64,000 bases of DNA from an uncultured candidatus Porisulfidus sp. GTDB taxonomy: Bacteria; Pseudomonadota; Gammaproteobacteria; Poriferisulfidales; Poriferisulfidaceae. Positions 31,016 to 44,976 of the stretch are shown one piece after another. Within the stretch, counting starts at the first letter, position 1; each line of letters begins with the position of its first letter. The stretch is from the NCBI GenBank assembly GCA_965221375.1, contig OZ244883.1, positions 64,071 to 128,070 on the forward strand, read 5' to 3'. Below the pieces are notes generated by a model that did no database searches, was not told the DNA's origin, and saw only the letters and a list, made by a program, of their open reading frames with translations. Position numbers and translations under genes: made by a program.

Positions 31016-31142
31016 CAAGCATCCCTTTTTCTGCCAAGCTACGAAATTTTTCTGCAGGATTTACAGCCCCGGATATTGCGACAGAGTATTTCGAAGTCGA
31101 ACGGCTCTTGAATATACTGCAGCGAACTGCTACAATAAATTT

Positions 31143-31203
31143 CAACCCCCCTTGTGGCTTCTGGCCGCTTGGTGCGGAGCCTCTTCGGAGGCTCCTGCTT
31201 TTT
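31143..31203 (+). ncRNA. candidate small RNA, array copy 3
   Basis: Same architecture as copy 1, with a TACAAT -10 box. Confidence 0.35.
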
Positions 31204-31330
31204 AAGCAGGCCTCTTTCGCGCCAAGTTTCGAATTTTTTCTGCAGAATTTACAACCCCGGATGTTCCGGCGAGATGTTTTGGGACCAAACAACCCTTGCA
31301 GATACTGCGACAAACGACTACAATAGCACC

Positions 31331-31390
31331 CTACCCCCCTAGCGGTTTCGGCCGCAGGATGCGGAGCCTCCTCGGGGGCTCCTGCTTTTT
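31331..31390 (+). ncRNA. candidate small RNA, array copy 4; its terminator ends 15 nt before the NYN gene start
   Basis: Same architecture as copy 1. The hairpin carries a wobble-preserving change (CUCG loop, U-G pair). Confidence 0.35.
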
Positions 31391-31404: not shown

Positions 31405-32028
31405 ATGCGCACGGCCGTCTATGTAGACGGGTTCAATCTGTACTACGGGGCACTAAAGAACACGAATTTTAAGTGGTTGGATTTGGTGGCGCTGTTTGAG
31501 AAGATTCTCGCACCTCACCATCAAATCGTCGCAGTCAAATACTTCACGGCCAGAGTCTCGGAAACAGACCGAAACCCGTTAGCACCTCGGCGCCAAGACA
31601 TTTACCTGCAGGCACTGTGCCACTACCGGCCGCACGTAAAGGTGTATTTTGGACACTTTTTGACCAATCGCGTCCGAATGCCACTCGCACAGCCGATCAA
31701 AAACCCGCACATAGTGAAAGTGATAAAAAGGGAGGAAAAAGGCTCGGACGTGAATCTTGCCGTGCATCTCTTGAATGACAGCTGGCTGGACCTCTATGAC
31801 TGTGCGGTAGTAGTGAGTAGCGACAGTGACCTTGCGGAAGCGATGCGCCTGACCAAGGAACAGCATGGCAAGCACATTGGTTTGTTAACTCCGGGCCACC
31901 GCCGCACATCCATGCGATTGGAAAAACATGCCCACTTCATACGACACATACGAGAAAGCGCATTATCAAAGTCGCAGCTTCCAGACCCAATCCCCGGCAC
32001 GAGCCTCAACAAGCCTGAAAGTTGGTAG
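31405..32028 (+). CDS. NYN-domain (LabA-like) predicted ribonuclease
   Basis: MRTAVYVDGFNLYYGA... with conserved Asp residues (VVSSDSDL) of the PIN-like NYN fold. GC is about 51%. Confidence 0.7.
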   Translation: MRTAVYVDGFNLYYGALKNTNFKWLDLVALFEKILAPHHQIVAVKYFTARVSETDRNPLAPRRQDIYLQALCHYRPHVKVYFGHFLTNRVRMPLAQPIKNPHIVKVIKREEKGSDVNLAVHLLNDSWLDLYDCAVVVSSDSDLAEAMRLTKEQHGKHIGLLTPGHRRTSMRLEKHAHFIRHIRESALSKSQLPDPIPGTSLNKPESW

Positions 32029-32107
32029 GGTAATCGGTCGAACACCGAAGCATCGCGGACGCAATGGAACAAATTTGCTCTGGATTAAGGCCGGCGCCCT
32101 GAAGATC

Positions 32108-33037
32108 TTATTGGCCGTACTGCGTTTGATACTCTTGAACAAGATCCGCCTTACGAAACCCCGGAACCGCCGTCGCTGTTCGCAGCGCCAAATTTTCATA
32201 GTCAATATTCAACAAGCGCTCGCGCACGATCGCTTGTTGGCCGGTTGCCGATGTGACGGAAAATAGCATCCACTGTTTATTCCGTTCACAGTTCGCCGCT
32301 TCCGTCTCGCGACGCCGATAGTCCTGCCAACCCTGGCAGGGCACCGCAAAATCAAAAGGCTGATCAAAAACTTTCAGGGCTCCTTGCGTGTTGTTGTATT
32401 GCCGAATTTCAAAGTGAGGATGAGTGATTGGCAAGGGCTGAAACAGCCGCTGATTCTCAAGATTACAAGGGCTGCGCGTCCAAACCTGAAACTCCGTATT
32501 GACAGCATAAGGATTGCCATTGGCCAGGCGAAATGCTTTGCGAGGCAGCGTCTTGCGACAGATTAATTGCAGATCGCTGTCCAGTTGCTTGTGAATAGCG
32601 AACTTGCGAAAACACACCGGCACAATAAAGGCGACCGTATCGGCCACTTGCGCTGCCTGATTGACAAACGCGACCGCCAGTTTTCCGCGTGCACCGAATG
32701 GAGGATTGCCAATCACCACGCGCTGCCTTTTAGGGGTCGACAATTGCGCCGGCTCCCACACCAGAAAATCCTGTGCGCAGACGCCCGCACAATGAGGCAT
32801 CAGATCCAGGCCGGTGCGTCGATCTTTCGGCAGCAAGTCAAAAAACGCCCCATCCCCCGCTGCCGGCTCAATAAACCAAATCTGCTTTGGATCGACCGGC
32901 AACACATTCAGTAAAGTCGCAAAACAGTCCGCCGCAACGGCGGGACTCGTATAAAACTGGTCCAATCGCCGCCGGAAATCCATGTTTGACTGTGTACCGC
33001 CTACTTTTGGCATGTTGTTTAATCCCGATATTTCCAA
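32108..33037 (-). CDS. gamma-class N6-adenine-type methyltransferase (probable DNA MTase)
   Basis: Motif I FIEPAAGDGAFF and motif IV VIGNPPFG, 309 aa. Convergent with the NYN gene. Confidence 0.55.
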   Translation of the reverse strand: MEISGLNNMPKVGGTQSNMDFRRRLDQFYTSPAVAADCFATLLNVLPVDPKQIWFIEPAAGDGAFFDLLPKDRRTGLDLMPHCAGVCAQDFLVWEPAQLSTPKRQRVVIGNPPFGARGKLAVAFVNQAAQVADTVAFIVPVCFRKFAIHKQLDSDLQLICRKTLPRKAFRLANGNPYAVNTEFQVWTRSPCNLENQRLFQPLPITHPHFEIRQYNNTQGALKVFDQPFDFAVPCQGWQDYRRRETEAANCERNKQWMLFSVTSATGQQAIVRERLLNIDYENLALRTATAVPGFRKADLVQEYQTQYGQ

Positions 33038-33094
33038 TTAGTATGCCATACCCCCGCTATTGCTAAAATTTCGGAAATCTTCCAAAAACTTTGA

Positions 33095-34687
33095 TTGTAT
33101 TCTTCGCAAATCAACAAAGACTCCCTGATGCAGAATCTTGAGATCAATCCCCAATTTGCACGGGCACTGGAATCTCTGGAGCACGGCGACAAGCCATTGT
33201 TGATTACCGGCAAGGCCGGCACCGGGAAATCGACATTGCTGGAACATTTCCGCACTCATGCCGACACCACCCCGGTCGTGCTCGCACCCACGGGGGTAGC
33301 CGCGCTCAATGTGCGAGGACAAACCGTGCACCGGTTTTTTGAATTCCGCCCGGGTATTACCCCGGAAAAAATTCGCACATCCAAACGCAAACTGCGTCAA
33401 CCCGAACTGTACAAAAAACTGACCACGATCATTGTCGACGAAGCTTCCATGCTGCGGGCGGATGTGCTGGACTGCATCGATGTCTTTCTGCGCAAACACG
33501 GGCCCACCTCAAACCAGCCTTTCGGTGGCGTGCGCATGGTTTTTGTGGGAGACCTTTACCAACTGCCTCCCGTCGTCACCAAGGACGAAAGGGAAATCTT
33601 CAAGACGTTTTATAAAACTCCTTACTTTTTCAGTGCCCATGCCTTGGAAGATCTGCAGATCGACATCATCGAATTGCTGAAAGTCTATCGCCAGCGCGAT
33701 GCGGAATTCATTGAGCTTTTGGACCGCATCCGCAAGAACACAACCGAAGCGGAAGACCTGGATCGCATCAACAGCCTGGTCGATGAGCACTTTGATCCTT
33801 CGGACGAGGACTTTTATCTCACTTTAACCGCCACCAATCATCGTGCAGACCGAATCAACCGGCATTATTTGGATGCCTTGCCCGGCAAGCCTCAAATGGC
33901 ACTGGCGGATGTCCAGGGTGAATTCAAAAGCAGTGATTTCCCCACCGATGAAGAGTTGATGTTCAAGGAAGGTGCGCGCATCATGCTGCTGAACAATGAT
34001 GGGCGCGGTCGCTGGGTCAACGGCAGCATCGGGCAGATTTTGGAGGTCACCCATAATGACGACGACGAACCCTTGATCGTTGTACAACTGTATAAGCCTG
34101 AAAAGATTGTGGAGGTGAGCCCCCACACTTGGGAAGTCACACGTTTTTACCTGGATGGCAAAAAAATCGGCACCGAGACAGTCGGTCGATTCAAGCAGTT
34201 GCCGTTCCGCCTGTCATGGGCCGTCACCATTCACAAAAGCCAAGGCAAGACTTTCGACCGCCTGATTTTTGATTTGGATCGCCCTGCTTTTGAATACGGG
34301 CAGACGTATGTGGGGCTGAGCCGATGCACTTCCTTTGAAGGGATTGTGTTGCGCCGGCCCATCTCCGCTTCTTCCATCCGTACGGATCGACGGGTTCAGA
34401 AATTTGTGACCGGCTACCACTACCGGCGCTCGGAAGAGGAAATGCCGTTGGAGAAAAAGGTTGAAAAAATTCGCACCGCCATCGCAACCGAATCCTCGCT
34501 AGCCATCACTTATTTGAAAGCCAACGACACGCAAAGTGAACGTACGATCAAACCGGAGAGAGTCGGCCCACACTTATACGACGACCGCGAATTCCTTGGA
34601 GTCAGCGGATTCTGTTTGCTGCGTCAAGCCAATCGCTCTTTCCGGGTAGACCGCATCCTTAAATTGGAGATCGTCTCCAACGCATAA
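33095..34687 (+). CDS. PIF1/RecD2-like SF1B helicase with a C-terminal WYL-like domain
   Basis: Walker A ITGKAGTGKST, IVDEASML, VGDLYQLPPV, TIHKSQGKTFD and YVGLSRCTS. The C-terminus ...FCLLRQANRSFRVDRIL resembles WYL. Confidence 0.7.
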   Translation: MYSSQINKDSLMQNLEINPQFARALESLEHGDKPLLITGKAGTGKSTLLEHFRTHADTTPVVLAPTGVAALNVRGQTVHRFFEFRPGITPEKIRTSKRKLRQPELYKKLTTIIVDEASMLRADVLDCIDVFLRKHGPTSNQPFGGVRMVFVGDLYQLPPVVTKDEREIFKTFYKTPYFFSAHALEDLQIDIIELLKVYRQRDAEFIELLDRIRKNTTEAEDLDRINSLVDEHFDPSDEDFYLTLTATNHRADRINRHYLDALPGKPQMALADVQGEFKSSDFPTDEELMFKEGARIMLLNNDGRGRWVNGSIGQILEVTHNDDDEPLIVVQLYKPEKIVEVSPHTWEVTRFYLDGKKIGTETVGRFKQLPFRLSWAVTIHKSQGKTFDRLIFDLDRPAFEYGQTYVGLSRCTSFEGIVLRRPISASSIRTDRRVQKFVTGYHYRRSEEEMPLEKKVEKIRTAIATESSLAITYLKANDTQSERTIKPERVGPHLYDDREFLGVSGFCLLRQANRSFRVDRILKLEIVSNA

Positions 34688-34830: not shown

Positions 34831-36345
34831 ATGACAGACTGTCGCCCCACTATCCTGGTCGTCTTGGACGGCGTCGGCATCAACCCGGATGTGCAGCACA
34901 ACGCTTTGGCCCAGGCGCACACTCCGAACTTGGATGCATTGTTTGCCGAAGGCGCTTTCACCACATTAAATGCCAGTGGCCCCGCAGTGGGTTTGCCCGA
35001 AGGCCAGATGGGCAACTCGGAAGTCGGTCACGTCATCATGGGTTGCGGAGATATTGTGCTGCAGGATCTGATGCGGATTGACGAAAGTATTCAAGACGGC
35101 TCGTTTTATGAAAACCCCGTTTTGCGCGATGCCATACGTGAGACGCTCGCGCGTCGCAGTCGACTGCACTTGCTGGGCCTTGTATCGGATGGCGGCGTGC
35201 ACTCGCACATTACCCACTTGCTGGCTCTGATTGAACTGAGTCGCCGCGAGGGAGCGCAGCCGCACGTGCATATGATTACGGATGGTCGTGACGTGCCCCC
35301 GCGTTCCGCTTTGCAGTGGTTGCCGGATGTTGAAGATGCCCTGGATAAAGCGGGAGGTGCGATTGATACGGTGTGCGGACGCTACTATGCGATGGACCGC
35401 GACCGCCGTTGGAGCCGCACCCAGCGGGCTTTCGATGCTATTGCCCACAACCGCGGCCACACCGCACCCAATGCCCGCGCCGCCATTGAACAGGCCTATG
35501 CTCAAGATTTGGGTGATGAATTTATCGAGCCGACGGTTATGCCGACTGCCGCTCCTTTGGCAGAAGGGGATATCGGCATATTTTTCAATTTCCGCAACGA
35601 CCGACCTCGTCAGTTGGCCGAAAGTCTGAACACCGCGATTTTTAGCGAATTTGACCGGGGCGCGTACACCCCTATGAAGCTGGTCACCATGACCGAGTTC
35701 CACCCGGATTACGATGCGCCCATCGCGTTTGAAGAAAAGGTGCCCTCTATTACCTTGGCGGAGATCCTCAGCCAGCAAGGTATTCCTCAATTACGTTGTG
35801 CGGAGACGGAAAAATACCCGCACGTCACTTTCTTCTTCAATGGGGGGCGCGAAAAACCGTGGCCGGGCGAGCAGCGGGTGATGTTGCCTTCACCGGATGT
35901 CGCCACCTACGACCTTTGTCCGCAGATGAATGCGGAAGGTGTCGCGGATGCGGTCGTCGATGCCATTCACAGTCGCCAGTACGGCTTCATTCTTGTGAAC
36001 TTCGCCAATGCTGACATGGTGGGACACACGGCACAGCAGAGCGCCATTATCCAGGCGATTGAAGCGCTTGATGTTCAGGTCGGACGTATTGTTGAGGCTG
36101 CCCGTGCACAGGACATGGCGCTTATTTTGACGGCCGACCATGGTAATTGCGACGAGATGGTCGATGCAGAAGGTCAGCCGCACACCCAGCATACGATGCA
36201 TCCCGTGCCCTGCGTTGTGCAGGACGGCACCGCGCATGAATTACGCGCGGATGGCGGCTTGGGTAACGTTGCCCCGACCGTATTGGATCTGATGGGTTTA
36301 GAAAAACCGCCGGAAATGCGGCAGTCGAGTTTGCTGGTTCACTGA
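34831..36345 (+). CDS. gpmI: 2,3-bisphosphoglycerate-independent phosphoglycerate mutase
   Basis: 504 aa iPGM with the metal-binding Ser region ...NSEVGH.... Core-like GC. Confidence 0.9.
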   Translation: MTDCRPTILVVLDGVGINPDVQHNALAQAHTPNLDALFAEGAFTTLNASGPAVGLPEGQMGNSEVGHVIMGCGDIVLQDLMRIDESIQDGSFYENPVLRDAIRETLARRSRLHLLGLVSDGGVHSHITHLLALIELSRREGAQPHVHMITDGRDVPPRSALQWLPDVEDALDKAGGAIDTVCGRYYAMDRDRRWSRTQRAFDAIAHNRGHTAPNARAAIEQAYAQDLGDEFIEPTVMPTAAPLAEGDIGIFFNFRNDRPRQLAESLNTAIFSEFDRGAYTPMKLVTMTEFHPDYDAPIAFEEKVPSITLAEILSQQGIPQLRCAETEKYPHVTFFFNGGREKPWPGEQRVMLPSPDVATYDLCPQMNAEGVADAVVDAIHSRQYGFILVNFANADMVGHTAQQSAIIQAIEALDVQVGRIVEAARAQDMALILTADHGNCDEMVDAEGQPHTQHTMHPVPCVVQDGTAHELRADGGLGNVAPTVLDLMGLEKPPEMRQSSLLVH

Positions 36346-36413
36346 GTCGGTTTGTTTCTTGCTTGTTGTCAAAATGTCTGGGTTTCACAGTTTTGAAGTC
36401 TCTAAAATCTGCA

Positions 36414-36908
36414 TCAATCACAAGCATCCGCATTTACTCGTAGATATTCGTTGATAAATTGGTCTGTATACTCGGAAACATATTGCAGAATAAATCCACC
36501 ATCTCCGCCGTGGGTTCCAGTGCCCCCACTGTTCCATATTGCCGCGGAGCCGTAACCAAGTGTTGGTCTGCGTACTAAAGTTATGAAATCAAAGGATATG
36601 CTATACCCTCTCCCAACAACATTCACATTCACGTATATCCAAAATTCAGCTCCGATGAGGTCAGAATCGTAAATTCCAGCCACTCTTAATCTGCTTTCTA
36701 CGGCAGTCTGGATCCTTTCTTTTGTCAAACCAATTTCTTTCGCGTCCTCGGGTAACTCTTCCACAGCCAAGCCAATTGGTTGACAATCGTTCCATAGCTT
36801 GAACCTGTCACGAACGCTCACTTCTTCCGTCGCCCATGTCGGCGTCCCGGCTAGCACCATCAGAAACAGGGCGCATCTAATTCGACTATGGGAATAAGGC
36901 GATTTCAT
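36414..36908 (-). CDS. secreted hypothetical protein (signal peptide)
   Basis: 164 aa with an N-terminal signal peptide, in low-GC DNA between the two copies of the gpmI 3' end. Confidence 0.4.
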   Translation of the reverse strand: MKSPYSHSRIRCALFLMVLAGTPTWATEEVSVRDRFKLWNDCQPIGLAVEELPEDAKEIGLTKERIQTAVESRLRVAGIYDSDLIGAEFWIYVNVNVVGRGYSISFDFITLVRRPTLGYGSAAIWNSGGTGTHGGDGGFILQYVSEYTDQFINEYLRVNADACD

Positions 36909-37092
36909 GGCTAATTATCAAACGTTCTTTTAGTTGAAGGTAGTCGATTAGCGGTGTAGATACCAAACCATTCCCTACAGCCGACATGATTATCTCACAA
37001 AAATTAAACTGGAAAACTTGTCATGACTGCACTCTAATTATTGAATGATTATTTTCTGTCGCAAATCAAGTTCTAGGATTCTGTCAGAAATT

Positions 37093-37333
37093 ATAGAGAA
37101 AGAGAAACGGCCGACCACGGTAATTGTGATGAGATGGTCAATGTGAAAGGTCAGTCGCATGCTCGACATACGATGCATCCCGTGCCCCGCGTTGTATAGG
37201 ATGGCTCCCCGCATGAATTACGCACGGACAGTGGTTTGGGCAACGTTGCCCCCACCGTATTGGATTTGATGGGCTTAGAAAAACCGCCGGAAATGCGGCA
37301 GTCGAGTTTGCTAATTCACTGAGTTGGTTTGTG
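37093..37333 (+). pseudogene. decayed duplicate of the gpmI 3' end (about 85% identical to 36129-36356), an attachment-site-like island boundary
   Basis: An ungapped, eye-aligned nucleotide match over about 235 bp. It carries an in-frame TAG where the intact copy has CAG and lacks the upstream part of the gene. Confidence 0.7.
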
Positions 37334-37387
37334 ATGTGATAGGGAATTATTAAGGGGTTTATATATTTAAATTTTGTCGAAGATGGC

Positions 37388-38590
37388 CTATAACTGCAGT
37401 TTAGCGCGGAGGTATTCCATCCCTCTATCGCCCTTGATCTTATTACAGGAACCACAAAGCAGTTGTAAGTTTTCCAAATGGTCAGTTCCTCCTTTCCCTT
37501 TCGCAATTATGTGGTCGATCTCAAGGTGTCGAGCTTCAAAATGTGTGTGGCAACCTGCGCAGTTTCCTTCTTGCTCTCCATAAAGTTTGCGTTTGTTTTC
37601 CGCACAATTGTAGGGCGGTAATTTGCCCACGTCCGTGCGCTGGGGAATGTCCGTGCGGTGCACAATATCGCGGAACAGACCCTGCCGTTCTTCAATGCGA
37701 CGTACCACCAGTTCCGCTGCTTTCTCCGATATGTCGATGCCAACCCATTGCCGTTGCAGATTGTCTGCTGCGACCAGCGTGGTTGCACAACCGCAGAATG
37801 GATCTAAGACCACATCATCGGGATTGCTTGACGCCTCAATAATGCGTTTTAGCAAGGCAAGAGGCTTCTGGGTTGGGTATATCTGTTTCACTGGCGGCAC
37901 ACGCTTAATTGGCCACACATCATCCTGCCTTACTCCGGCAGATTTGCCTTTTGTTGTCGAGGGGATACGATTTCCATACTCATCGTGTCCGGAAACTATT
38001 TTCCCCTCACCAAATCTTTTTTGCGTAGACTCAGCCCGGGGCATATAGAGTTGATTAAATTGTCGTTCTTTTCCTTCCTTACCATAAAAGAGAACGACAT
38101 CATGGTTGCGTTGAAATTGGTATTTCCCCGAAGACCATTTTCGATAATGCCATACCACTTCATTACGGAAATATCTCTTCCCGAAAATCGCGTCCATCAC
38201 CAGTTTTAGGTGGTGGCTCATAGTTGGATCACAATGGAGATAGACTGATCCTGCCGGTTTCAATATTCTGTGTATTTCTAATATTCTGACCGCCATATAA
38301 ATCAAGTAAGACTTGTCTGATTTGCTCATGGCCGCAAGAATAATGCGGTGCAGTTTCGGATGCTTTGCTTCTACCAAGTCGAGCCACGCTACGTCTACAT
38401 CGCGTAATGTCCAAGTATCCTTGAATGCGGCTCCTGCCGCCTTACTTCCGATAGGCGCAGCGTAATCGTGCTTTGAATTAAACGGCGGATCAAGATAAAT
38501 CAGGTCAACCGTCTCAGAATTCATGCCTCGCATGATATCGAGATTGTCGCCCGTCCAGATGGTTCTAGACTTCCAGTTTGGCTCGGCCAC
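37388..38590 (-). CDS. DNA methyltransferase (beta-class, DPPF) fused to a C-terminal HNH endonuclease domain
   Basis: Motif IV IYLDPPFN, motif I VVLDPFCGCATT and the HNH segment CAGCH...HLEIDHIIAKGKGGTDHLENLQLLCGSCNKIKG. Confidence 0.7.
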   Translation of the reverse strand: MAEPNWKSRTIWTGDNLDIMRGMNSETVDLIYLDPPFNSKHDYAAPIGSKAAGAAFKDTWTLRDVDVAWLDLVEAKHPKLHRIILAAMSKSDKSYLIYMAVRILEIHRILKPAGSVYLHCDPTMSHHLKLVMDAIFGKRYFRNEVVWHYRKWSSGKYQFQRNHDVVLFYGKEGKERQFNQLYMPRAESTQKRFGEGKIVSGHDEYGNRIPSTTKGKSAGVRQDDVWPIKRVPPVKQIYPTQKPLALLKRIIEASSNPDDVVLDPFCGCATTLVAADNLQRQWVGIDISEKAAELVVRRIEERQGLFRDIVHRTDIPQRTDVGKLPPYNCAENKRKLYGEQEGNCAGCHTHFEARHLEIDHIIAKGKGGTDHLENLQLLCGSCNKIKGDRGMEYLRAKLQL

Positions 38591-38693
38591 GCGCTAATCC
38601 TCGTCAAAATTCATGGAAATTATTGTGTGTTGCTCTGGGCGGCGACATCCATTTTACGCATGAAAGAATCCCAAGTATTCGAGGTTTCCATCT

Positions 38694-39539
38694 TCACAAA
38701 TTTCTTCTGAGTTGCCCAAGTCGATTCTCGAGATTAGATCGAAGAGCATCCAACCCTTCCCCGTTATTTAGATACTTAATATGACGTATATGACCAAGGT
38801 CAAATGGAACGTCCTCACTGTTCTGGGTGATCAAAATAACTTCCCGTCCAAGTGTGTGGGCAATACCTATCTCATAAAAAACATTTGAGTTCTTTTTAGT
38901 GCAGTCGCAAATTACCACAAAAGACTTATCTATCAGCGCCACTATATCTTGAATAATTGCCGAACTTTCCCAAATTTGATCTGCGCGGCGACTTTCCATT
39001 CCAACGTTTTGAACCGCTTTTTCAATTTCTCTATATACCACGTCAAAATCAGCACCGAATGGCATCATGGTAGATGCAAGAGTCGAATCTATATCTTCAT
39101 TTTCGGAAACAGTGAACACCTTCGGGCCTTTCCTGAGAGGCATAGAAACGCTGAGCAGTGTTCGAAACAAATCAATGTCCTTGACCGCCCAATGCGTCCT
39201 CGAGAACTCCCACCTGTCTGACATGCCAAAATCAAACTTTTTCCCGAATATTACGCTGTTTGGGATCGGCTTTATGGCAGAGGCAAAAGAGTAATCGATA
39301 GATATTTCTGCTCCATCTTTTCGTACTTGCGTTATTTCACCAACGTGGGCAAGCTGTGTGTTGCTTGTACCTTCCCGCATGAATAGACAGGGGAGTTTGC
39401 GAAGTTCCTCGTAGAGAATTCCATCGCCACCTTGAAACTGTGCTTTTACATTATCCTCAGTGTATTCAAAAAGGCGCTCTAAAAGAACTGACCCCCTCCC
39501 GTTTTCCCATGGTAAGCCTTTACAAAGGAGGTTATACAT
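38694..39539 (-). CDS. hypothetical protein with a C-terminal nucleoside 2-deoxyribosyltransferase-like / TIR-like domain
   Basis: The C-terminal pattern FVVICDCTKKNSNVFYEIGIAHTLGREVILI matches the NDT-like fold motif (vvA.l.....D.GT.fE.G.A...gK.vi). The N-terminal domain is unknown. Low GC. Confidence 0.45.
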   Translation of the reverse strand: MYNLLCKGLPWENGRGSVLLERLFEYTEDNVKAQFQGGDGILYEELRKLPCLFMREGTSNTQLAHVGEITQVRKDGAEISIDYSFASAIKPIPNSVIFGKKFDFGMSDRWEFSRTHWAVKDIDLFRTLLSVSMPLRKGPKVFTVSENEDIDSTLASTMMPFGADFDVVYREIEKAVQNVGMESRRADQIWESSAIIQDIVALIDKSFVVICDCTKKNSNVFYEIGIAHTLGREVILITQNSEDVPFDLGHIRHIKYLNNGEGLDALRSNLENRLGQLRRNL

Positions 39540-39790
39540 TAGGTGATTTACGCTCTCAGCCGCGGTGTTTTCCTTCGGAGCCTTTGATTGGCTTACTCAA
39601 GCTGATTTAAGATAATAACGAAAGGGTTATTATAGATACCATCTCTTTTGCGAACAGGCCGGAGCCACCAAGCAAAAGCATATCTGACGAAATTTCCGTA
39701 GTAGATTAAGGAAGGGTATAAAGATGCATTGACAGACTGGAAAACACGAGCGGTCTTCGTGTCTGTATGACCCGTTCTTATGGCGTTGAT

Positions 39791-40276
39791 TTACAAAGAA
39801 AGAGAAAACGATCCGTCCGGACCGTTATAGATGAAGAGGCAGCGCTGCAGAACGTCTCGGCCAATAAGAGCGATAAGGCCCTGCGGGGCCAAGTGTGCCC
39901 CGTAGGCTCTCTGCACAACCAAATTAATGGGGAAATTTGCAAAATCAAATGCACCTGCATAGACAGGAACAACCTCCGCCTTGTGGGTCGCTGATGTCAT
40001 TTTCCCGCTATCGACGATGACAAGTCCCGCACGCTTGGCCGCCTCTTGGTCAACACACGTGTTCACTGCCCCCGTATCAATAAGCGCAAACCCACTGACG
40101 GGTTCCGGCATGGCACCTTCCTTTTCAGCTATGGCTTTTGCGTGCTCTTCCAGAGGAGTCAACGTCAACTGCACTAGTGGCCCTGCCTGTTGAAGACTAC
40201 CCCCAGGCGAAAGAGAAGTGGTTTTACCCTCGGCATCCTTCTTCTCGGCTTGAAGCTTTGCGTTAAGAATTGGCAA
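39791..40276 (-). CDS. retropepsin-like (clan AA) aspartic protease
   Basis: ALIDTGAVNTCV carries the D-T-G catalytic motif flanked by hydrophobic residues, 161 aa. Confidence 0.5.
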   Translation of the reverse strand: MPILNAKLQAEKKDAEGKTTSLSPGGSLQQAGPLVQLTLTPLEEHAKAIAEKEGAMPEPVSGFALIDTGAVNTCVDQEAAKRAGLVIVDSGKMTSATHKAEVVPVYAGAFDFANFPINLVVQRAYGAHLAPQGLIALIGRDVLQRCLFIYNGPDGSFSLSL

Positions 40277-40577
40277 CGAACGGTCCTCCTAAAGGCGGTT
40301 TAGAAATATTCGGGATTGTGGCAGTTGCCGTTCTGTTTGTTGTGAAAAACCCCATTAGAAACACACGACCGCCGAGCGTGCCCATCTTATCAATACCTGC
40401 CAAATCCGCTACTTGCCACAATGCTAAGCAGGCCCGTGAAGGCGACTTTGTAGAAAAATTGACGAGATTAATACAGTAAAAAACACCTCTTTGCGTTTGC
40501 TGAAATAAGCAATTTATGGCATACTAGCCCGTCCATCGGGGCGCTACGGAAGCCTTCCGCTTCCCCTCCCTACCAAA

Positions 40578-40597
40578 GCCGCTTCGGCGGTTTTTTT
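40578..40597 (+). terminator. intrinsic terminator GCCGC-TTCG-GCGG plus U7, 64 nt upstream of sga
   Basis: GC stem with a UUCG tetraloop followed by TTTTTTT. It is preceded by a TTGCTG-N17-CATACT promoter-like element and a C-rich segment of about 75 nt. Confidence 0.4.
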
Positions 40598-40660
40598 ATG
40601 ACTGCGCGAGCGACTGGTGTTGGCGCATTAGATCAACCTTCACAACATTCTTAAAGACTT

Positions 40661-41929
40661 ATGCCTGCTGAAAAACTTGTTTTCCCTGGCCGCAATTACT
40701 TGTACGCCCCCGGCCCTACCCATATTCCGGTTGCGGTGCAAAACGCCATGGTTGTGCCGATGGAAGACCATCGCGCTCCTGATTTTCCACAATTGGTGAA
40801 GCCGCTTCTGCGCGACCTCAAAAAAATCTTCAAGACCCGCAACGGTCAAGCTTTCATTTTTCCCGCTACCGGCACCGCAGGTTGGGAGGTTGCTCTCACC
40901 AACACCCTTTCTCCGGGTGACAAGGTATTGACGGCCCGTTTTGGGCAGTTTTCGCACCTTTGGGCGGACTTGGCTCAGCGCATGGGCCTTGACGTTCAGA
41001 TTGTGAAGGTGAAGTGGGGAGAAGGGGTGCCCCTGAAAGAATTCGAGAAAATTCTCAAAGCGGACAAAAAACACGAAATCAAGGCCGTACTGGCCTGTCA
41101 CAACGAAACCGCCACCGGTGTCACCAGCGACATCGCGGGTTTGCGCAAAGCAATGGATCGTGCCAAACATCCGGCCCTGCTGATGGTCGACGGCGTCAGT
41201 TCCATCGCCAGCATTGATTTCCGCATGGATGAGTGGAAGGTCGATGTGGCCGTCTCGGGTTCGCAGAAAGGTTTCATGCTGCCGGCCGGCATGGCTTTGC
41301 TGGCATTTTCGCGACGCGCTCTGGCCGCCGCCAAAAATGCCAAGTGCAAACGTTGCTTCCTGGATATCGCCGATCATATTGCAACCAATAAAGACGGCTT
41401 TTTCCCCTACACCCCCTCCGCACCCATGCTCCGTGGCTTACGTGCTTCCATGGATCTGCTGCTGGGCGAGGGCTTGGAAAACGTCTTCGCGCGCCACCAT
41501 CGACTTGCTGAAGGGGTGCGTCAGGCTATTCGCGGTTGGGGACTGAACTTGTGTGCAACTGAACCCAAGTGGTATTCCGACACGGTCTCGGCCATCAAGG
41601 TGCCGCCCAGCGTCAACGCTGCTGAAGTCATCCACATCGCCTATCATCGCTACAACATTTCGCTCGGCGCCGGCCTGTCGGAAGTCGCCGGCAAGGTGTT
41701 CCGCATCGGGCATCTGGGTGACAACAACGAAGTCCGCATGATGGCGGCTTTGGGTGGCGTTGAAATGGCCATGCGCGATGCCGGCATGAAGGTCAAACCC
41801 GGCTCGGGTGTGGCGCGTGCCGTAGAGTATTATTGCGATACGGCGCGTCCTATCGCGGCCTTCGGTTCTGCCGCCAAGCCGCGTGAAACCGTCGCCAAAA
41901 AGCCAGCTGCTAAGCGCAAGAAGAAATAA
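40661..41929 (+). CDS. sga: serine--glyoxylate aminotransferase (class V)
   Basis: 422 aa with the class-V aminotransferase pattern (SGSQKGFMLPAG, PLP-binding Lys) and a Lys-rich C-terminal tail. Confidence 0.8.
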   Translation: MPAEKLVFPGRNYLYAPGPTHIPVAVQNAMVVPMEDHRAPDFPQLVKPLLRDLKKIFKTRNGQAFIFPATGTAGWEVALTNTLSPGDKVLTARFGQFSHLWADLAQRMGLDVQIVKVKWGEGVPLKEFEKILKADKKHEIKAVLACHNETATGVTSDIAGLRKAMDRAKHPALLMVDGVSSIASIDFRMDEWKVDVAVSGSQKGFMLPAGMALLAFSRRALAAAKNAKCKRCFLDIADHIATNKDGFFPYTPSAPMLRGLRASMDLLLGEGLENVFARHHRLAEGVRQAIRGWGLNLCATEPKWYSDTVSAIKVPPSVNAAEVIHIAYHRYNISLGAGLSEVAGKVFRIGHLGDNNEVRMMAALGGVEMAMRDAGMKVKPGSGVARAVEYYCDTARPIAAFGSAAKPRETVAKKPAAKRKKK

Positions 41930-41936
41930 GACTGCC

Positions 41937-42878
41937 ATGAGCCACACACAAGCTACTCCGGCACCGGCACGCCTGCAACGCAGCGAACTGGCGGTGCCGG
42001 GCTCAAACCCGGCCCTGTTCGAAAAAGCCCTGAACTCGGCGGTCGACTACGTGTTCCTTGACTTGGAAGACGCCGTCGCACCCGACGACAAAGAGCAGGC
42101 ACGCAAAAACGTCATTGAGGCTTTGCGTGATTTGGACTGGAAGGGCGCCGGCAAAACCATCTCCGTACGCATCAACGGCCTGGATACGCATTACATGTAT
42201 CGGGACGTGGTCGATGTGATGGAGCAGGCCGGCGACCAATTGGACACCATCCTGATTCCCAAGGTGGGGGTCCCGGCGGATGTCTACATGGTCGAGGCGA
42301 TGGTCAACCAGATTGAGCAGGGATGCGGATTTACCAGCCGAGTCGGTCTTGAGGCGCTGATTGAGACTGCTCTGGGGATGGCCAACGTCGAGGCGATTGC
42401 CGCCTACGGCGGACGCCTGGAGGCTCTGCATTTTGGAGTGGCTGATTACGCTGCTTCCAACCGTGCCCGAACAGTCAATATCGGCGGCCTGAATCCGGAC
42501 TATCCGGGCGATCAGTGGCACGCGGCCCTCTCGCGTATGACCGTGGCCTGCCGAGCTCATGGCTTGCGGCCCATTGACGGCCCATTCGGCGACTTCAAGG
42601 ACCCCGAAGCTTATACCGCAGCCGCCCGACGGGCAGCTGCGCTTGGCATTGAAGGCAAGTGGGCCATTCACCCCTCGCAGATCGAACTGGCGAACGAGGT
42701 GTTCTCCCCGCCTGAAGCGGAAGTTGATCGGGCCCGACGCATCCTGCAGGAACTTGAGACTGCCGCTGCCGAAGGCCGGGGCGCCGCGGCGGTAGATGGC
42801 AAAATGATTGATGCTGCTTCGGCTCGCATGGCGGAGAATGTTGTCCGACTGGCCGAGGCCATCGCCGAACGCGCTTAA
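41937..42878 (+). CDS. mcl: malyl-CoA lyase (HpcH/CitE family)
   Basis: Family motifs VFLDLEDAV and EALHFGVADY; start set to MSHTQ at 41937. Confidence 0.8.
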   Translation: MSHTQATPAPARLQRSELAVPGSNPALFEKALNSAVDYVFLDLEDAVAPDDKEQARKNVIEALRDLDWKGAGKTISVRINGLDTHYMYRDVVDVMEQAGDQLDTILIPKVGVPADVYMVEAMVNQIEQGCGFTSRVGLEALIETALGMANVEAIAAYGGRLEALHFGVADYAASNRARTVNIGGLNPDYPGDQWHAALSRMTVACRAHGLRPIDGPFGDFKDPEAYTAAARRAAALGIEGKWAIHPSQIELANEVFSPPEAEVDRARRILQELETAAAEGRGAAAVDGKMIDAASARMAENVVRLAEAIAERA

Positions 42879-42898
42879 GCGCAGGATTTTCAACACTT

Positions 42899-44071
42899 AT
42901 GCATATTCACGAATACCAAGCCAAGGAGACGCTGGTCAATTACGGCATTCGGGTCCAGCCCGGCTCGCTGGTCTACAGCCCTGACCAGGCGGTCGCCGCC
43001 TATAACTCGTTGGGCAGCGATGTTTGCGCCGTCAAAGCACAGATTCACTCAGGCGCACGCGGCAAAGCGGGAGGCATCCGCCTGTGCCGCAACAACGATG
43101 AGGTGCGCAAAGCGGCGGACGATCTGCTCGGCACCCGTTTGACCACCCACCAGACCGGTTCGTCCGGAAAACTCGTACAAAAACTCTATATTGAAGCCGG
43201 CGTTGATATCGAACGCGAAATCTACCTGGCTTTTGTGCTCGACCGCGCCAAGCAGCGCCACGTCGCGGTGGGTTCCGCTGAAGGCGGCATGGAAATTGAG
43301 CAGTTGGCGCAGGAAAAACCGGACTCAATCGTACGCATCAGTATCGACCCGGCGGTCGGTATGCGTTTTTTCCAGGCCCACGAACTGGCCTTCAGACTGG
43401 GGCTTGAACCTGATCTGATCAAGCAGGCCGCGGCCACTTTCCGCGGTTTGTACAAGGCGATGGTGGAATTGGACGCAAACATGGTGGAGATCAACCCGCT
43501 GGTTGTCACCCGCCAGCGCCGTCTGATTGCTCTGGACGCCAAAATGGAGTTCGACGACAACGCCCTGTTTCGACATCACGAAGTCGCCGAATTGCGCGAC
43601 ATGTCTCAGGAAGACCCGCGCGAGACGGCCGCTTCCGACCACGACTTGAGTTACGTGGGCCTCGACGGTGACATCGGCTGCATGATCAATGGCGCGGGCC
43701 TGGCCATGGCCACGATGGACATGATCAAACTGTCCGGAGGCGAGCCGGCCAATTTCCTGGACATCGGCGGCGGCGCCTCTCCGGAGCGCGTGGCGAAAGC
43801 CTTTGACCTGGTTTTGCAGGACGGCAACGTCAAAGCCATGCTGGTGAATATTTTTGCCGGAATTAACCGCTGCGACTGGATTGCGGAAGGCTTGATCAAG
43901 GCGCTCAACACCATTGAGTTGAATGTGCCTTTGGTCGTGCGTCTCTCCGGCACCAACGTCGAGGAAGGCACGAAGATGCTGCGCGACAGCGGCCTGCCGA
44001 TCATCATGGCGGATACGCTGGCGGACGCGGCTGAAAAAGCCGTCTCTGCGGCCGGCGCCAAGGGAGAGTGA
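42899..44071 (+). CDS. mtkA: malate--CoA ligase (malate thiokinase) beta subunit
   Basis: MHIHEYQAKE..., a SucC-like ATP-grasp protein, lying with mcl and sga. Confidence 0.8.
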   Translation: MHIHEYQAKETLVNYGIRVQPGSLVYSPDQAVAAYNSLGSDVCAVKAQIHSGARGKAGGIRLCRNNDEVRKAADDLLGTRLTTHQTGSSGKLVQKLYIEAGVDIEREIYLAFVLDRAKQRHVAVGSAEGGMEIEQLAQEKPDSIVRISIDPAVGMRFFQAHELAFRLGLEPDLIKQAAATFRGLYKAMVELDANMVEINPLVVTRQRRLIALDAKMEFDDNALFRHHEVAELRDMSQEDPRETAASDHDLSYVGLDGDIGCMINGAGLAMATMDMIKLSGGEPANFLDIGGGASPERVAKAFDLVLQDGNVKAMLVNIFAGINRCDWIAEGLIKALNTIELNVPLVVRLSGTNVEEGTKMLRDSGLPIIMADTLADAAEKAVSAAGAKGE

Positions 44072-44074
44072 ACC

Positions 44075-44962: not shown

Positions 44963-44976
44963 GGAAGGAGCATTGC

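What the first reader, a model, noticed from the sequence alone, without database searches (positions are those of the whole stretch)
36129..40600. Low-GC island at the 3' end of gpmI, marked by a decayed duplicate of the gene end, carrying MTase-HNH, an NDT/TIR-like effector and a retropepsin-like protease
The last roughly 235 bp of gpmI (36129-36356) recur at 37093-37333 at about 85% identity with an internal stop codon. This is the classic signature of site-specific integration into a gene 3' end that regenerates the reading frame, as tRNA-targeting islands do. No integrase remains, so the element looks degraded or fixed.

Cargo:
- A secreted small protein sits between the two copies.
- A beta-class DNA methyltransferase is fused to an HNH nuclease (37388-38590).
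- A protein has a C-terminal nucleoside-2-deoxyribosyltransferase-like or TIR-like fold, which is typical of NAD- or nucleotide-targeting defence effectors, and an unknown N-terminal domain (38694-39539).
- A retropepsin-like DTG aspartic protease (39791-40276).

GC is about 43-48% against about 62% in the flanks. The MTase-HNH, NDT-like protein and protease together could be a self-contained modification/restriction or abortive-infection module.
Basis: partly seen in the sequence, partly recalled or inferred. Interest (0 to 1): 0.6.

Follow-up and report, generated by a model that had tools for sequence, protein, structure and literature searches.

The report
Mosaic defence gene patch beside gpmI
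The low-GC stretch after the glycolytic gene gpmI is real foreign DNA with a real decayed copy of the gene's end, but it is a patchwork of small, independently mobile genes rather than one integrated island; the most notable is an unstudied single-protein candidate phage-defence gene.

Summary
The last 226 nt of gpmI (36130-36355) recur ungapped at 37107-37332 at 86% identity. The second copy carries an in-frame TAG and changes at universally conserved residues. GC falls to 41-53% between gpmI and the downstream aminotransferase gene (sga).

- The two copies bracket just 751 bp, holding one orphan secreted-protein gene. They do not bracket the island.
- No integrase is present in the window.
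- The three 'cargo' genes each occur without the others elsewhere, so they are not a module.

What the cargo genes are:
- **MTase-HNH:** a 1.3-kb low-GC cassette found at 80-85% nucleotide identity in two unrelated genomes. In more distant relatives it is a passenger of IS1595-family insertion sequences.
- **281-aa protein:** joins an uncatalogued ~138-aa N-terminal domain to a nucleoside-deoxyribosyltransferase/DNPH1-like (DrHyd) domain with the catalytic Glu conserved. In related proteins the same N-domain is fused to TIR, AbiJ-type HEPN, FRG or SEFIR effectors. This fits a stand-alone sensor-effector abortive-infection protein.
- **Retropepsin-like gene:** belongs to a conserved two-gene pair whose small partner has decayed here.

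Verdict: an ordinary accretion hot spot holding one uncharacterised member of a known kind of defence protein.

The parts
34831..36345 (+). gpmI (2,3-bisphosphoglycerate-independent phosphoglycerate mutase), intact, 504 aa
   Evidence: Pfam Metalloenzyme 2e-77 and iPGM_N 4e-69, matched over the full length. The C-terminus aligns to the end of orthologues.
36130..36355 (+). Repeat copy A: the functional 3' end of gpmI plus 10 nt beyond the stop codon
   Evidence: It keeps the residues conserved in orthologues (PHTQHT, PVPC). Its GC3 of 0.64 equals that of the rest of the gene.
36414..36908 (-). Orphan 164-aa ORF with a signal-peptide-like N-terminus. It is the only gene between the two repeat copies.
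   Evidence: ORF list. No hit in Pfam, PADLOC, NCBIfam, PHROGs or plasmids. GC is about 0.44-0.46. A promoter-like site lies at 37064-37037 on the minus strand.
37107..37332 (+). Repeat copy B: decayed pseudogene fragment of the gpmI 3' end
   Evidence: 86% identical to copy A with an in-frame TAG. It has 13 non-synonymous codon changes, including changes at conserved P, T, Q and C residues. Of the 31 substitutions, 28 are transitions, and 20 run GC->AT against 8 AT->GC.
37342..37350 (+). GGGAATTAT, a possible relic of an IS1595-type terminal inverted repeat, 46 bp beyond the MTase-HNH stop codon (weak evidence)
   Evidence: It matches the first 9 nt of the perfect 26-bp terminal repeats of the IS1595-type element that carries an MTase-HNH in L184, and it has the right side and orientation. 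The 9-mer occurs only twice in the window. Similarity fades beyond 9 nt, so this may be chance.
37387..38685 (-). MTase-HNH cassette: gene 37388-38590 (400 aa; beta-class DPPF methyltransferase plus a zinc-finger HNH) with a conserved ~95-nt leader
   Evidence: Pfam and PADLOC hits. DNA homology to L174 (85%) and L173 (80%) covers exactly 37387-38685 and stops at the stop codon. In all three genomes it is a low-GC insert in high-GC surroundings.
38694..39539 (-). 281-aa two-domain protein: uncatalogued N-terminal domain (residues 1-138; 39126-39539) plus a DrHyd/NDT/DNPH1-like C-terminal domain (residues ~150-281)
   Evidence: 2221 homologues of ~280 aa, none with a Pfam domain or a functional name. 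AF2 models and Foldseek searches. The N-domain is shared with proteins carrying TIR, Abi_C, FRG or SEFIR effectors. E223 aligns with the catalytic Glu of DNPH1.
39791..40276 (-). Retropepsin-like protein, 161 aa, with a DTGA motif
   Evidence: Pfam gag-asp_proteas 2e-5, below the cut-off. 314 homologues of ~160 aa, many carrying PF13975.
40263..40520 (-). Degenerate partner ORF of the retropepsin-like gene. The frame is open for about 86 codons, but the first start codon leaves only 52 aa (40263-40421).
   Evidence: Homologous loci L089, L091 and L176 all have an 87-88-aa ORF overlapping the protease start by 13-14 nt. In the window only the C-terminal third still aligns.
40661..41929 (+). Class-V aminotransferase gene (read as serine-glyoxylate aminotransferase), the first core gene to the right; it marks the right edge of the low-GC patch
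   Evidence: Pfam Aminotran_5 3e-24. GC returns to 0.54-0.60.

Best explanation
**What it is.** The 4.3 kb between gpmI and sga is an accretion hot spot, not a single element. At least four small foreign units have accumulated there independently.

1. **Orphan secreted-protein gene and the repeat.** Its arrival displaced or duplicated the last 226 nt of gpmI. Copy B is the non-functional leftover and has been decaying under AT-biased mutation ever since. The insertion route is unknown. It could be an integrase-borne replacement 3' end, or one-sided homologous plus illegitimate recombination.

2. **MTase-HNH cassette (1.3 kb).** This family spreads as a solitary gene and, in other lineages, as the passenger of IS1595-family insertion sequences. 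It most likely acts as a selfish single-chain modification-plus-nuclease gene: an adenine-type DPPF methyltransferase protects the host, and the HNH cuts unmodified DNA. This role is inferred, not shown.

3. **281-aa protein.** It is most likely a stand-alone abortive-infection-type defence protein. A conserved N-terminal domain acts as sensor or regulator. It holds in check a C-terminal DrHyd (NDT/DNPH1-like) N-glycosidase. On infection that enzyme would destroy NAD+ or (deoxy)nucleotides. The architecture and effector swapping are shown; the activity and trigger are inferred.

4. **Retropepsin-like gene.** It is half of a conserved two-gene pair of unknown role, and its small partner is degenerate here.
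For: **Repeat.** 226 nt, 86% identical, E 5e-66. Copy B has a stop codon and 13 non-synonymous changes at residues conserved in orthologues.

**Repeat position.** The copies enclose only 751 bp, and no third copy exists.

**No integrase**.

**MTase-HNH**
- The same 1.3-kb unit, with its leader and ending at the stop codon, lies between unrelated housekeeping genes in L173 and L174. It has 48-55% GC in 61-66% GC surroundings.
- In L184 and L185-187 it directly follows an IS1595 transposase, inside perfect 25-26-bp inverted repeats with 7-8-bp target duplications. In L184 the element splits a dehydrogenase gene.

**281-aa protein**
- 2221 homologues; neighbourhoods vary. In three annotated loci the neighbours are DruA, TIR, AbiE, ThsB-TIR+SLATT and AAA_21+DUF4435.
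- The top Pfam families among 144 neighbours are SLATT, TIR_2, HTH_3, ThsB_TIR and Mrr.
- It also occurs on plasmids next to AbiE, IS elements and integrases.
- The C-domain fold matches NDT/DNPH1. Invariant E223 aligns with the DNPH1 catalytic Glu.
- The N-domain profile finds 1186 cluster representatives. Of 76 full-length ones, 42 carry the DrHyd domain. The other 34 carry CAP12/Pycsar-TIR (12), TIR_2 (8), Abi_C/AbiJ HEPN (7), TIR (3), FRG (2), SEFIR (2) and others.
- This N-terminal-domain-plus-swappable-toxin pattern is what Anantharaman et al. 2013 proposed for AbiJ-type proteins, including NDT fusions (PMC3710099).

**Retropepsin pair.** The arrangement is conserved in three unrelated contexts.

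**Hot-spot behaviour.** The slot on the other side of gpmI carries NYN/HEC-09 + MTase + PIF1-WYL here, and a Type ISP R-M enzyme in the nearest relative.
Against: - No strain-level relative with an empty site was found. The nearest gpmI is 75% identical at the protein level. The order and boundaries of the insertions are therefore inferred from composition and from other genomes.
- The four minus-strand genes are co-oriented with short gaps (103 and 251 bp), and no terminator was predicted between them. Co-transcription is not excluded.
- The N-domain has no confident structural match. The best are YTH (E 0.02), Lon-N and ASCH. 'Sensor' therefore rests on architecture alone.
- The NDT Pfam hit is below its cut-off.
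- Nothing here shows enzymatic activity or phage protection.
- A preprint reports PUA-like/DrHyd proteins linked to N6-adenine methylases (PMC12871103). The adjacency to the MTase could therefore be functional after all.
Confidence: 0.6

Rival explanations
1. First reader's model. The whole low-GC stretch is one site-specific integrative island that targeted the 3' end of gpmI and supplied a replacement gene end, as e14 and phage 21 do at icd. It later lost its integrase and became fixed.
For: A direct repeat of a gene's 3' end that restores the reading frame is the expected scar of this mechanism. The repeat starts on a codon boundary and runs just past the stop codon. The whole stretch is compositionally foreign.
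Against: The repeats flank only 751 bp. Everything else lies outside them, and no third copy or core repeat exists at the right edge. There is no integrase or fragment of one. The cargo genes have separate histories elsewhere. Copy A has the same GC3 as the rest of gpmI, so it does not look element-derived.
Confidence: 0.15
2. The repeat is the scar of homology-facilitated illegitimate recombination. DNA from a related strain carried gpmI next to different downstream cargo. It recombined homologously on one side and joined illegitimately inside the recipient's gpmI 3' region on the other. This left a truncated second copy. No recombinase is needed.
For: Homology ends 10 nt after the stop codon, which is where two strains with different accessory DNA would be expected to diverge. 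The left end of copy B is an abrupt junction with no shared flank. The deficit of second-codon-position changes (12/2/17) suggests that part of the 14% divergence arose between functional alleles rather than by decay alone. There is no integrase. Both flanks of gpmI are variable.
Against: This is inference only. No donor or recipient allele is available, and the codon-position skew could also come from GC-biased mutation targets. An integrase-carrying element that was later mostly deleted would leave the same picture.
Confidence: 0.3
3. The 281-aa protein and the adjacent MTase-HNH form a functional pair. The methyltransferase marks host DNA. The N-domain, possibly PUA-like, senses methylated nucleotides released when a phage degrades the chromosome. 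It then switches on the DrHyd effector, by analogy with the PUA-Cal-HAD system.
For: The two genes are adjacent and co-oriented, 103 bp apart. The N-domain's only structural resemblances are to PUA-clan folds that bind modified bases: YTH, Lon-N and ASCH. The preprint PMC12871103 states that PUA-like domains fused to DrHyd, TIR or HEPN occur and are linked to N6-adenine methylases.
Against: Only 1 of 144 neighbours of family members is an N6_N4 MTase. The MTase-HNH moves alone or with an IS and has its own leader. The fold matches are all weak (E >= 0.02). The published ligand-binding motifs (VWWGWWxKxxExxP, TPxYY) are absent from the family alignment.
Confidence: 0.1
4. The DrHyd-like domain is a ligand sensor, like SLOG in Thoeris ThsA. 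In that case the 281-aa protein is the effector arm of a TIR-signalling system rather than an autonomous protein.
For: TIR-domain genes are the commonest neighbours: TIR_2 in 6, ThsB_TIR in 3 and SLATT in 6 of 144 neighbours. A convergent TIR gene lies next to the homologue in both L082 and L083. The TIR, DrHyd and SLOG superfamilies are related, and some members are non-catalytic sensors (PMC9503650).
Against: The window has no TIR gene nearby. Most loci lack one. The domain in the C-terminal position is exchanged for known toxins (TIR, HEPN, FRG), which marks it as the effector slot. The catalytic Glu is invariant.
Confidence: 0.1

Closest known systems
AbiJ-type single-protein abortive-infection architecture (N-terminal 'Abi-NTD' plus interchangeable C-terminal toxin; Anantharaman et al. 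2013, PMC3710099)
   Same: A ~140-aa N-terminal domain is shared by proteins whose C-terminus is an AbiJ HEPN, a TIR, a kinase or a nucleoside 2-deoxyribosyltransferase. I found the same set of partners for this N-domain. The paper explicitly lists NDT fusions with AbiJ-NTD1.
   Different: I could not test whether this N-domain is AbiJ-NTD1, because no sequence or model was available. The paper's table calls NTD1 mostly alpha-helical, whereas this model is beta-rich. It is not NTD3, which co-occurs with it in P0452. The N-terminal half of the PADLOC AbiJ model does not match it. No member has been tested experimentally.
PUA-Cal-HAD and related PUA-like sensor/effector fusions (Zhang et al. 2026 preprint, PMC12871103)
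   Same: A sensor domain is fused to alternative effectors (HEPN, DrHyd, TIR), with a reported link of the DrHyd versions to N6-adenine methylases. Here a DrHyd fusion sits beside an adenine-type MTase. The N-domain shows faint resemblance to PUA-clan folds.
   Different: The published PUA motifs are absent. The fold match is not significant. There is no calcineurin or HAD partner. The MTase linkage is not a family trait.
NDT/DNPH1 (DrHyd superfamily) enzymes and NDT-like defence effectors such as the retron Ec86/Eco1 effector
   Same: Same fold (Foldseek E 1e-4, TM to target up to 0.71) and a conserved nucleophile Glu in the 'YE(I/L)G' motif. DrHyd domains in conflict systems are predicted NADases or nucleotide glycosidases (PMC9503650). 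The retron example is from my own knowledge.
   Different: Sequence similarity is below the Pfam cut-off. The phosphate-binding loop differs ('MMPF' in place of 'GSIRGG', by eye). The domain is fused to a different partner, with no reverse transcriptase or msDNA.
PADLOC candidate single-gene systems PDC-S35, PDC-S66 and PDC-S15
   Same: Variants of the N-domain family carry exactly these C-terminal effector halves, with E values of 1e-33 to 1e-95.
   Different: The matches cover only the effector half. The N-domain is not part of any PADLOC v2 model. The window protein itself hits only a generic TIR effector model, at 3e-8.
Prophage integration into the 3' end of a protein gene with a substitute gene end (e14 / phage 21 at icd in E. 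coli; own knowledge)
   Same: A functional gene followed by a displaced, diverged copy of its 3' end.
   Different: There the repeats bound a whole prophage that has an integrase. Here they bound 751 bp and no recombinase gene.
IS1595-family insertion sequences with passenger genes
   Same: In L184 and L185-187 the MTase-HNH gene lies directly after an IS1595 transposase gene, within perfect 25-26-bp inverted repeats and 7-8-bp target duplications.
   Different: The window copy has no transposase and no convincing inverted repeats, only a 9-nt match at 37342. Its closest relatives are also solitary.

Membership tests
Integrative island at a gene 3' end | Direct repeats of the target gene's end flank the whole element | tested here: not met
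   The repeats flank only 36356-37106. The MTase-HNH, 281-aa and protease genes lie outside them, and there is no third copy.
Integrative island at a gene 3' end | Tyrosine or serine recombinase gene in the element | tested here: not met
   tblastn with a tyrosine integrase found nothing (best E 4.2). Pfam on the ORFs shows no recombinase. No serine recombinase query was run.
Integrative island at a gene 3' end | Empty site in related genomes | tested here: inconclusive
   The nearest gpmI (75% aa, L001) has neither the island nor the duplicate, but its downstream genes differ altogether. The only other contig (L081) is the same strain, at 99.993% identity.
DrHyd / nucleoside 2-deoxyribosyltransferase superfamily | NDT/DNPH1 flavodoxin-like fold | tested here: met
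   AF2 model with pLDDT 88.6. Foldseek against PDB gives NDT and DNPH1 as top hits, E 1.4e-4 to 5e-4, TM to target 0.55-0.71.
DrHyd / nucleoside 2-deoxyribosyltransferase superfamily | Catalytic nucleophile Glu | tested here: met
   E223 is invariant in 35 homologues.
DrHyd / nucleoside 2-deoxyribosyltransferase superfamily | Pfam PF05014 gathering score | tested here: not met
   17.4 bits against a cut-off of 28.8. 18 of 76 relatives reach E <= 0.01, with a best value of 1e-5.
TIR domain | Match to TIR profiles or structures better than to other Rossmannoid folds | tested here: not met
   PADLOC TIR effector model 3e-8 over 75 residues. TIR structures appear only from rank 17, at E >= 1.4e-3, below NDT/DNPH1. 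No Pfam TIR hit.
Sensor + swappable-effector single-protein Abi (AbiJ-like) | Same N-terminal domain fused to different toxin domains | tested here: met
   Of 76 full-length representatives, 42 carry DrHyd and 34 carry something else: CAP12/Pycsar-TIR 12, TIR_2 8, Abi_C 7, TIR 3, FRG 2, SEFIR 2.
Sensor + swappable-effector single-protein Abi (AbiJ-like) | Stand-alone gene in variable, defence-rich neighbourhoods | tested here: met
   No conserved partner. The commonest neighbour, SLATT, is in 6 loci. Defence and mobile-element neighbours are common.
Sensor + swappable-effector single-protein Abi (AbiJ-like) | Protection against phage by abortive infection | not testable with these tools
   Needs experiments.
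PUA-like modified-nucleotide sensors (Zhang et al. 2026) | PUA/ASCH-clan fold | tested here: inconclusive
PUA-like modified-nucleotide sensors (Zhang et al. 2026) | Aromatic-pocket motifs VWWGWWxKxxExxP and TPxYY | tested here: not met
   Absent from the alignments. The conserved motifs are instead RxFEYT, LPCLFxxEG and FEFSRTHWAVKD.
Beta-class N6/N4 DNA methyltransferase | PF01555 above cut-off, with DPPF and FxGxG motifs | tested here: met
   154 bits against a cut-off of 26.7. 'LDPPFNS' and 'LDPFCGCATT' are present in the translation. Adenine specificity is inferred from DPPF and from partial YhdJ/CcrM matches.
HNH nuclease | PF01844 above cut-off, with CxxC...H-N-H...CxxC | tested here: met
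   45.7 bits against a cut-off of 21.4. The motifs are visible in residues 344-389.
IS1595-family passenger element | Adjacent DDE_Tnp_IS1595 transposase and terminal inverted repeats | tested here: not met
   Present in L184 and L185-187. In the window there is no transposase, no inverted repeat of 13 nt or more around the gene, and only a 9-nt end-like motif at 37342.
Retropepsin-like aspartic protease (PF13975/PF13650) | Profile match and DTG active-site motif | tested here: inconclusive
   25.5 bits against a cut-off of 28.2, and 22.2 against 24.3. The DTGA motif is present. Homologues at 41-67% identity carry PF13975.

The most novel reading that the evidence does not exclude
The conserved N-terminal domain would be a new, highly diverged PUA-clan sensor of modified nucleotides. 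In this genome it would work with the neighbouring adenine methyltransferase. Methylated nucleotides released from the degraded host chromosome would switch on the DrHyd glycosidase. That would extend the 'methylome-derived alarm' principle, so far reported for one system, to a family with more than a thousand cluster representatives and TIR, HEPN, FRG and DrHyd outputs.
Probability: 0.1. Interest if true: 0.7.

Novelty: new member of a known kind. Interest (0 to 1): 0.35.

Why it matters
As a genome feature this is routine: a variable slot next to a core gene that collects small defence and selfish genes. Three points are of modest practical value.

1. **A cautionary example.** A gene-end duplicate need not delimit the island it sits in.

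2. **A candidate for testing.** The 281-aa gene belongs to a large family (2221 close homologues). Its N-domain is found in 1186 cluster representatives, on chromosomes and plasmids of many proteobacteria. The family has no Pfam, NCBIfam or PADLOC model and is annotated only as 'hypothetical'. Its N-domain is exchanged among five known classes of immune effector. That makes it a cheap, well-defined candidate for experimental defence screens and for asking what the N-domain senses.

3. **A route of spread for MTase-HNH.** This fusion family is very large. It travels both as a bare 1.3-kb cassette and as an IS1595 passenger, which offers a concrete way for orphan-looking methyltransferases to spread.

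Tried and rejected
- **Third gpmI-end copy or att core at the right edge.** Only a 14-nt inverted match at 40585-40598 turned up. It is a terminator-like hairpin and was judged chance.
- **Empty-site comparison.** The genome collection gave nothing closer than 75% aa. The exact-protein look-up gave only the same strain. The sga product is not on record.
- **Integrase remnants.** None found.
- **Known RNA families across 28-42 kb.** None found.
- **Sequence search of solved structures.** Neither the 281-aa family nor its C-domain gave anything meaningful.
- **Pfam on the N-domain alone.** Nothing found.
- **Link to the PUA-Cal protein.** The ECOR28 record is not held and the preprint has no supplement held, so only a motif comparison was possible.
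- **Link to AbiJ-NTD1.** The supplement does not hold the alignment.
- **Type III toxin-antitoxin reading of the 188-bp tandem array upstream of the NYN gene.** Three plasmid NYN homologues have no such repeats.
- **DNA similarity of the island to plasmids.** Only two short protein-level echoes.
- **Literature search for 'MTase-HNH' terms.** No papers.

Full report
**1. Observation**

The ORF map shows gpmI at 34831-36345 (+). Four minus-strand ORFs follow:
- 36414-36908 (164 aa)
- 37388-38590 (400 aa)
- 38694-39539 (281 aa)
- 39791-40276 (161 aa)

Next comes a class-V aminotransferase gene at 40661 (+), then an HpcH/HpaI-type lyase gene.

GC in 400-nt windows falls from 0.55-0.58 in gpmI to 0.41-0.53 across 36400-39800. 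It recovers to 0.54-0.65 from about 40600.

The last 226 nt of gpmI plus 10 nt beyond its stop codon (36130-36355) recur at 37107-37332. The match has no gaps and 31 mismatches, which is 86.3% identity and blastn E 5e-66. Read in the gpmI frame, the second copy has CAG->TAG. Two small corrections apply: the second copy starts at 37107, not 37093, and the flanks are nearer 55-60% GC than 62%.

**2. Which copy is the relic**

The 31 differences break down as follows:
- 28 transitions and 3 transversions
- 20 GC->AT against 8 AT->GC, reading from copy A to copy B
- 12, 2 and 17 changes at codon positions 1, 2 and 3
- 14 synonymous and 13 non-synonymous codon changes

In five orthologues, the positions where A and B differ carry the copy-A residue: PHTQHT, PVPC and GGLGN. 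Copy B has P->S, T->A, Q->R, C->R and a stop codon.

Copy B is therefore the unselected, decaying fragment. Copy A is the working gene end, and its GC3 of 0.64 matches the rest of gpmI. The shortage of second-position changes suggests that part of the divergence arose between functional alleles. The test is weak.

**3. Does the repeat delimit the island?**

No. The copies enclose only 36356-37106, which is 751 bp. That segment holds the 164-aa ORF and a promoter-like site.

The 164-aa ORF has a signal-peptide-like start (by eye). It has no relative in Pfam, PADLOC, NCBIfam, PHROGs or plasmids.

The other three genes lie to the right of copy B. No third copy or shared core exists near 40600. 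The only match there is a 14-nt inverted hit to a terminator-like hairpin.

No integrase is detectable in the window.

**4. Relatives**

- The closest gpmI in the species-level genome collection is 75% identical (L001, a Chromatiales MAG).
- Only the H+-pyrophosphatase gene and gpmI are shared with the window.
- Downstream of gpmI, L001 has core genes: an EEP-family gene, peptidase M3, gyrB, recF and dnaN. It has no duplicate.
- Between the pyrophosphatase gene and gpmI, L001 carries a 1631-aa Type ISP restriction-modification enzyme in low-GC DNA.
- The same slot in the window holds a 188-bp tandem array, a NYN/HEC-09 gene, a Type II MTase and a PIF1-WYL helicase.
- Both sides of gpmI are therefore variable, defence-rich slots.
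- The one metagenome contig with an identical gpmI (L081) is the same strain, at 99.993% identity, and has the same arrangement.
- No empty site is available.

**5. MTase-HNH**

The domains are solid: N6_N4_Mtase 6e-45 and HNH 7e-12. The DPPF, FxGxG and CxxC...HNH...CxxC motifs are present. The fusion family is very large and uniform at about 400 aa.

*Solitary copies.* The nearest members (93% and 89% aa) sit alone between housekeeping genes in two other high-GC genomes, L174 and L173. DNA homology to the window is 85% and 80%. It covers exactly 37387-38685, which is the gene plus a conserved ~95-nt leader, and it stops at the stop codon. The unit has 48-55% GC in surroundings of 61-66%.

*Copies inside insertion sequences.* Two more distant members (63-65% aa) lie directly after an IS1595-family transposase gene. 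Each sits inside perfect 25-26-bp terminal inverted repeats with 7-8-bp target duplications. In L184 the element splits a short-chain dehydrogenase gene.

*The window copy.* It has no transposase. A 9-nt match to the L184 repeat terminus (GGGAATTAT, 37342) lies 46 bp past the stop codon in the right orientation. Similarity fades beyond that, so I treat it as a lead only.

*Conclusion.* This gene is an independently mobile unit with its own leader. It is not part of an operon with its neighbours. Its role as a selfish single-chain modification/nuclease gene is inference.

**6. The 281-aa protein**

*Family.* It has 2221 homologues, nearly all 275-290 aa and 50-60% identical. None has a Pfam domain or a functional name. 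There is no NCBIfam model either.

*C-terminal domain.* An AlphaFold2 model built on 35 sequences has pLDDT 88.6 and shows two domains joined by a disordered linker at residues 136-143. The C-domain matches nucleoside 2'-deoxyribosyltransferases and DNPH1 (Foldseek E 1.4e-4 to 5e-4, TM to target up to 0.71). TIR domains appear lower down the list. The invariant motif NxNVFYExGxAH places E223 on the DNPH1 nucleophile Glu (the DNPH1 sequence is from memory). In the nomenclature of Aravind and colleagues this is the DrHyd superfamily. Its conflict-system members are predicted NADases or nucleotide glycosidases (PMC9503650).

*N-terminal domain.* Modelled alone (residues 1-138) it is confident: pLDDT 93.6 and pTM 0.87. 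It has no significant structural neighbour. The best matches are YTH (E 0.02, TM 0.41-0.46), Lon N-domain and a phage ASCH protein. All are PUA-clan folds and all are weak. No Pfam family matches it.

*Effector swapping.* A profile of the N-domain, searched against 1.84 billion cluster representatives, finds 1186 proteins. Of 76 full-length ones, 42 carry the DrHyd domain and 34 carry something else:
- CAP12/Pycsar-type TIR: 12
- TIR_2: 8
- Abi_C (AbiJ HEPN): 7
- TIR: 3
- FRG: 2
- SEFIR: 2
- One each of a kinase, ThsB-TIR and others

The effector halves of these variants match the PADLOC candidates PDC-S35, PDC-S66 and PDC-S15, and AbiJ. The matches cover the effector half only.

*Neighbourhoods.* No partner is conserved.
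- Three annotated loci show DruA, TIR, AbiE, ThsB-TIR+SLATT and AAA_21+DUF4435.
- In 80 metagenome loci the commonest neighbour cluster is a SLATT protein, in 6 loci.
- Among 144 neighbours (up to two genes either side), the top Pfam families are SLATT, TIR_2, HTH_3, ThsB_TIR and Mrr. Only one is an N6_N4 MTase and none is a retropepsin.
- Plasmid copies lie next to AbiE, IS elements and integrases, and are annotated 'hypothetical protein'.

*Reading.* This is the signature of a stand-alone sensor/regulator-plus-toxin protein. It is the architecture that Anantharaman et al. 2013 proposed for AbiJ-type proteins, with NDT fusions explicitly noted (PMC3710099).

**7. The retropepsin-like gene**

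The Pfam hits are just below the cut-off, but the DTGA motif is present. The 314 homologues of about 160 aa commonly carry PF13975.

In three unrelated contexts (L089, L091, L176) the gene is preceded by an 87-88-aa ORF that overlaps its start by 13-14 nt. In the window the equivalent frame is open for about 86 codons. It has no start codon before codon 35, and only the C-terminal third still aligns. The partner therefore looks degenerate. None of these loci contains the 281-aa family or an MTase-HNH.

**8. Synthesis**

The patch is best read as accretion of independent small units in a hot spot. It is not one degraded island, and it is not a three-gene system.

The repeat records one event at the gpmI end. 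Two routes fit:
- An integrase-borne element that brought a substitute gene end and was later almost entirely deleted. This follows the e14/icd paradigm (my own knowledge).
- One-sided homologous plus illegitimate recombination with DNA from a strain that had different downstream cargo. This route needs no recombinase. It also explains why homology stops 10 nt past the stop codon.

I cannot separate these two without closer relatives.

**9. The functional-pair alternative**

A preprint shows that a PUA-like domain senses m6-dAMP from degraded Dam-methylated host DNA. It also notes PUA-like fusions to DrHyd, TIR and HEPN linked to N6-adenine methylases (PMC12871103).

The window's DrHyd protein sits 103 bp from an adenine-type MTase, and its N-domain faintly resembles PUA-clan folds, so a functional pair is conceivable.

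Three things argue against it:
- The published ligand-pocket motifs are absent.
- The fold match is not significant.
- MTase adjacency is 1 in 144 across the family, and the MTase-HNH is independently mobile.

I give this reading about 10%.

**10. Novelty and score**

The island, the gene-end scar, the MTase-HNH and the retropepsin are ordinary. The 281-aa family is a member of a computationally anticipated class. It is uncatalogued in Pfam (2025), NCBIfam (2026) and PADLOC (2023), and as far as I could find it is untested. The effector-swapping evidence assembled here makes it a good experimental candidate.

Overall: a new member of a known kind, with interest 0.35.

Noticed in passing
window 30662-31390: A tandem array of 3.9 copies of a 188-bp unit (79% matches) lies directly upstream of the NYN/HEC-09 gene. 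In the one unit folded, the 3' part forms a strong GC hairpin followed by a U-run. There is no Rfam match. Three plasmid NYN homologues have no such array, so it is not a conserved partner. Its function is unknown.
   Followed up: partly
window 31405-34687; L001 4810-9705: The slot between the H+-pyrophosphatase gene and gpmI is a second defence hot spot. The window holds NYN/HEC-09 (PADLOC 1e-44), a Type II MTase (32108-33037, minus strand) and a PIF1-WYL helicase (33095-34687). The 75%-identical relative holds a 1631-aa Type ISP restriction-modification enzyme in the same place.
   Followed up: partly
L184 3198-6463; L185 3937-7167: These are IS1595-family elements of about 3.2 kb with perfect 25-26-bp inverted repeats and 7-8-bp target duplications. 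Each carries an MTase-HNH gene immediately after the transposase gene. The L184 copy splits a short-chain dehydrogenase gene.
   Followed up: partly
window 30623 and 37342: These are the only two occurrences in the window of GGGAATTAT, the first 9 nt of the L184 IS1595-type terminal repeat. Both are on the plus strand. One lies just before the 188-bp array and one 46 bp after the MTase-HNH stop codon. They may be IS-end relics or chance.
   Followed up: partly
L083 4480-5843; also L094, L097, L126, L145, L162: A SLATT gene lies next to homologues of the 281-aa protein in 6 metagenome or genome loci, in 3 of them as a ThsB-type TIR + SLATT pair. In most of these loci it lies just upstream on the same strand. 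This is the most recurrent neighbour. It could mean a three-gene arrangement in some lineages.
   Followed up: no
L089 4751-5483; L091 4747-5477; L176 1227-1962: A conserved two-gene pair: an 87-88-aa ORF overlaps by 13-14 nt the start of a ~160-aa retropepsin-like gene. It is found in unrelated contexts (next to integrases, among metabolic genes, and next to an outer-membrane protein gene). The layout resembles a toxin-antitoxin pair or a protease-substrate pair. It is uncharacterised.
   Followed up: partly
window 19016-19999 and 61863-63479: Other single-gene low-GC patches (46-48% GC) lie in the same window. One is a DUF6161 protein. The other is a 538-aa AAA_21 ATPase fused to DUF4435 (OLD/PARIS-like). 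Small foreign defence-type genes appear to be scattered throughout this genome.
   Followed up: no
window 40661-48677: The core genes to the right of the patch begin with a class-V aminotransferase and an HpcH/HpaI-type lyase. From ORF sizes and translations read by eye, the next genes look like malate thiokinase subunits and PEP carboxylase. That would be a serine-cycle-like cluster, unusual for a Chromatiales-like genome. Only the first two were checked against Pfam.
   Followed up: no
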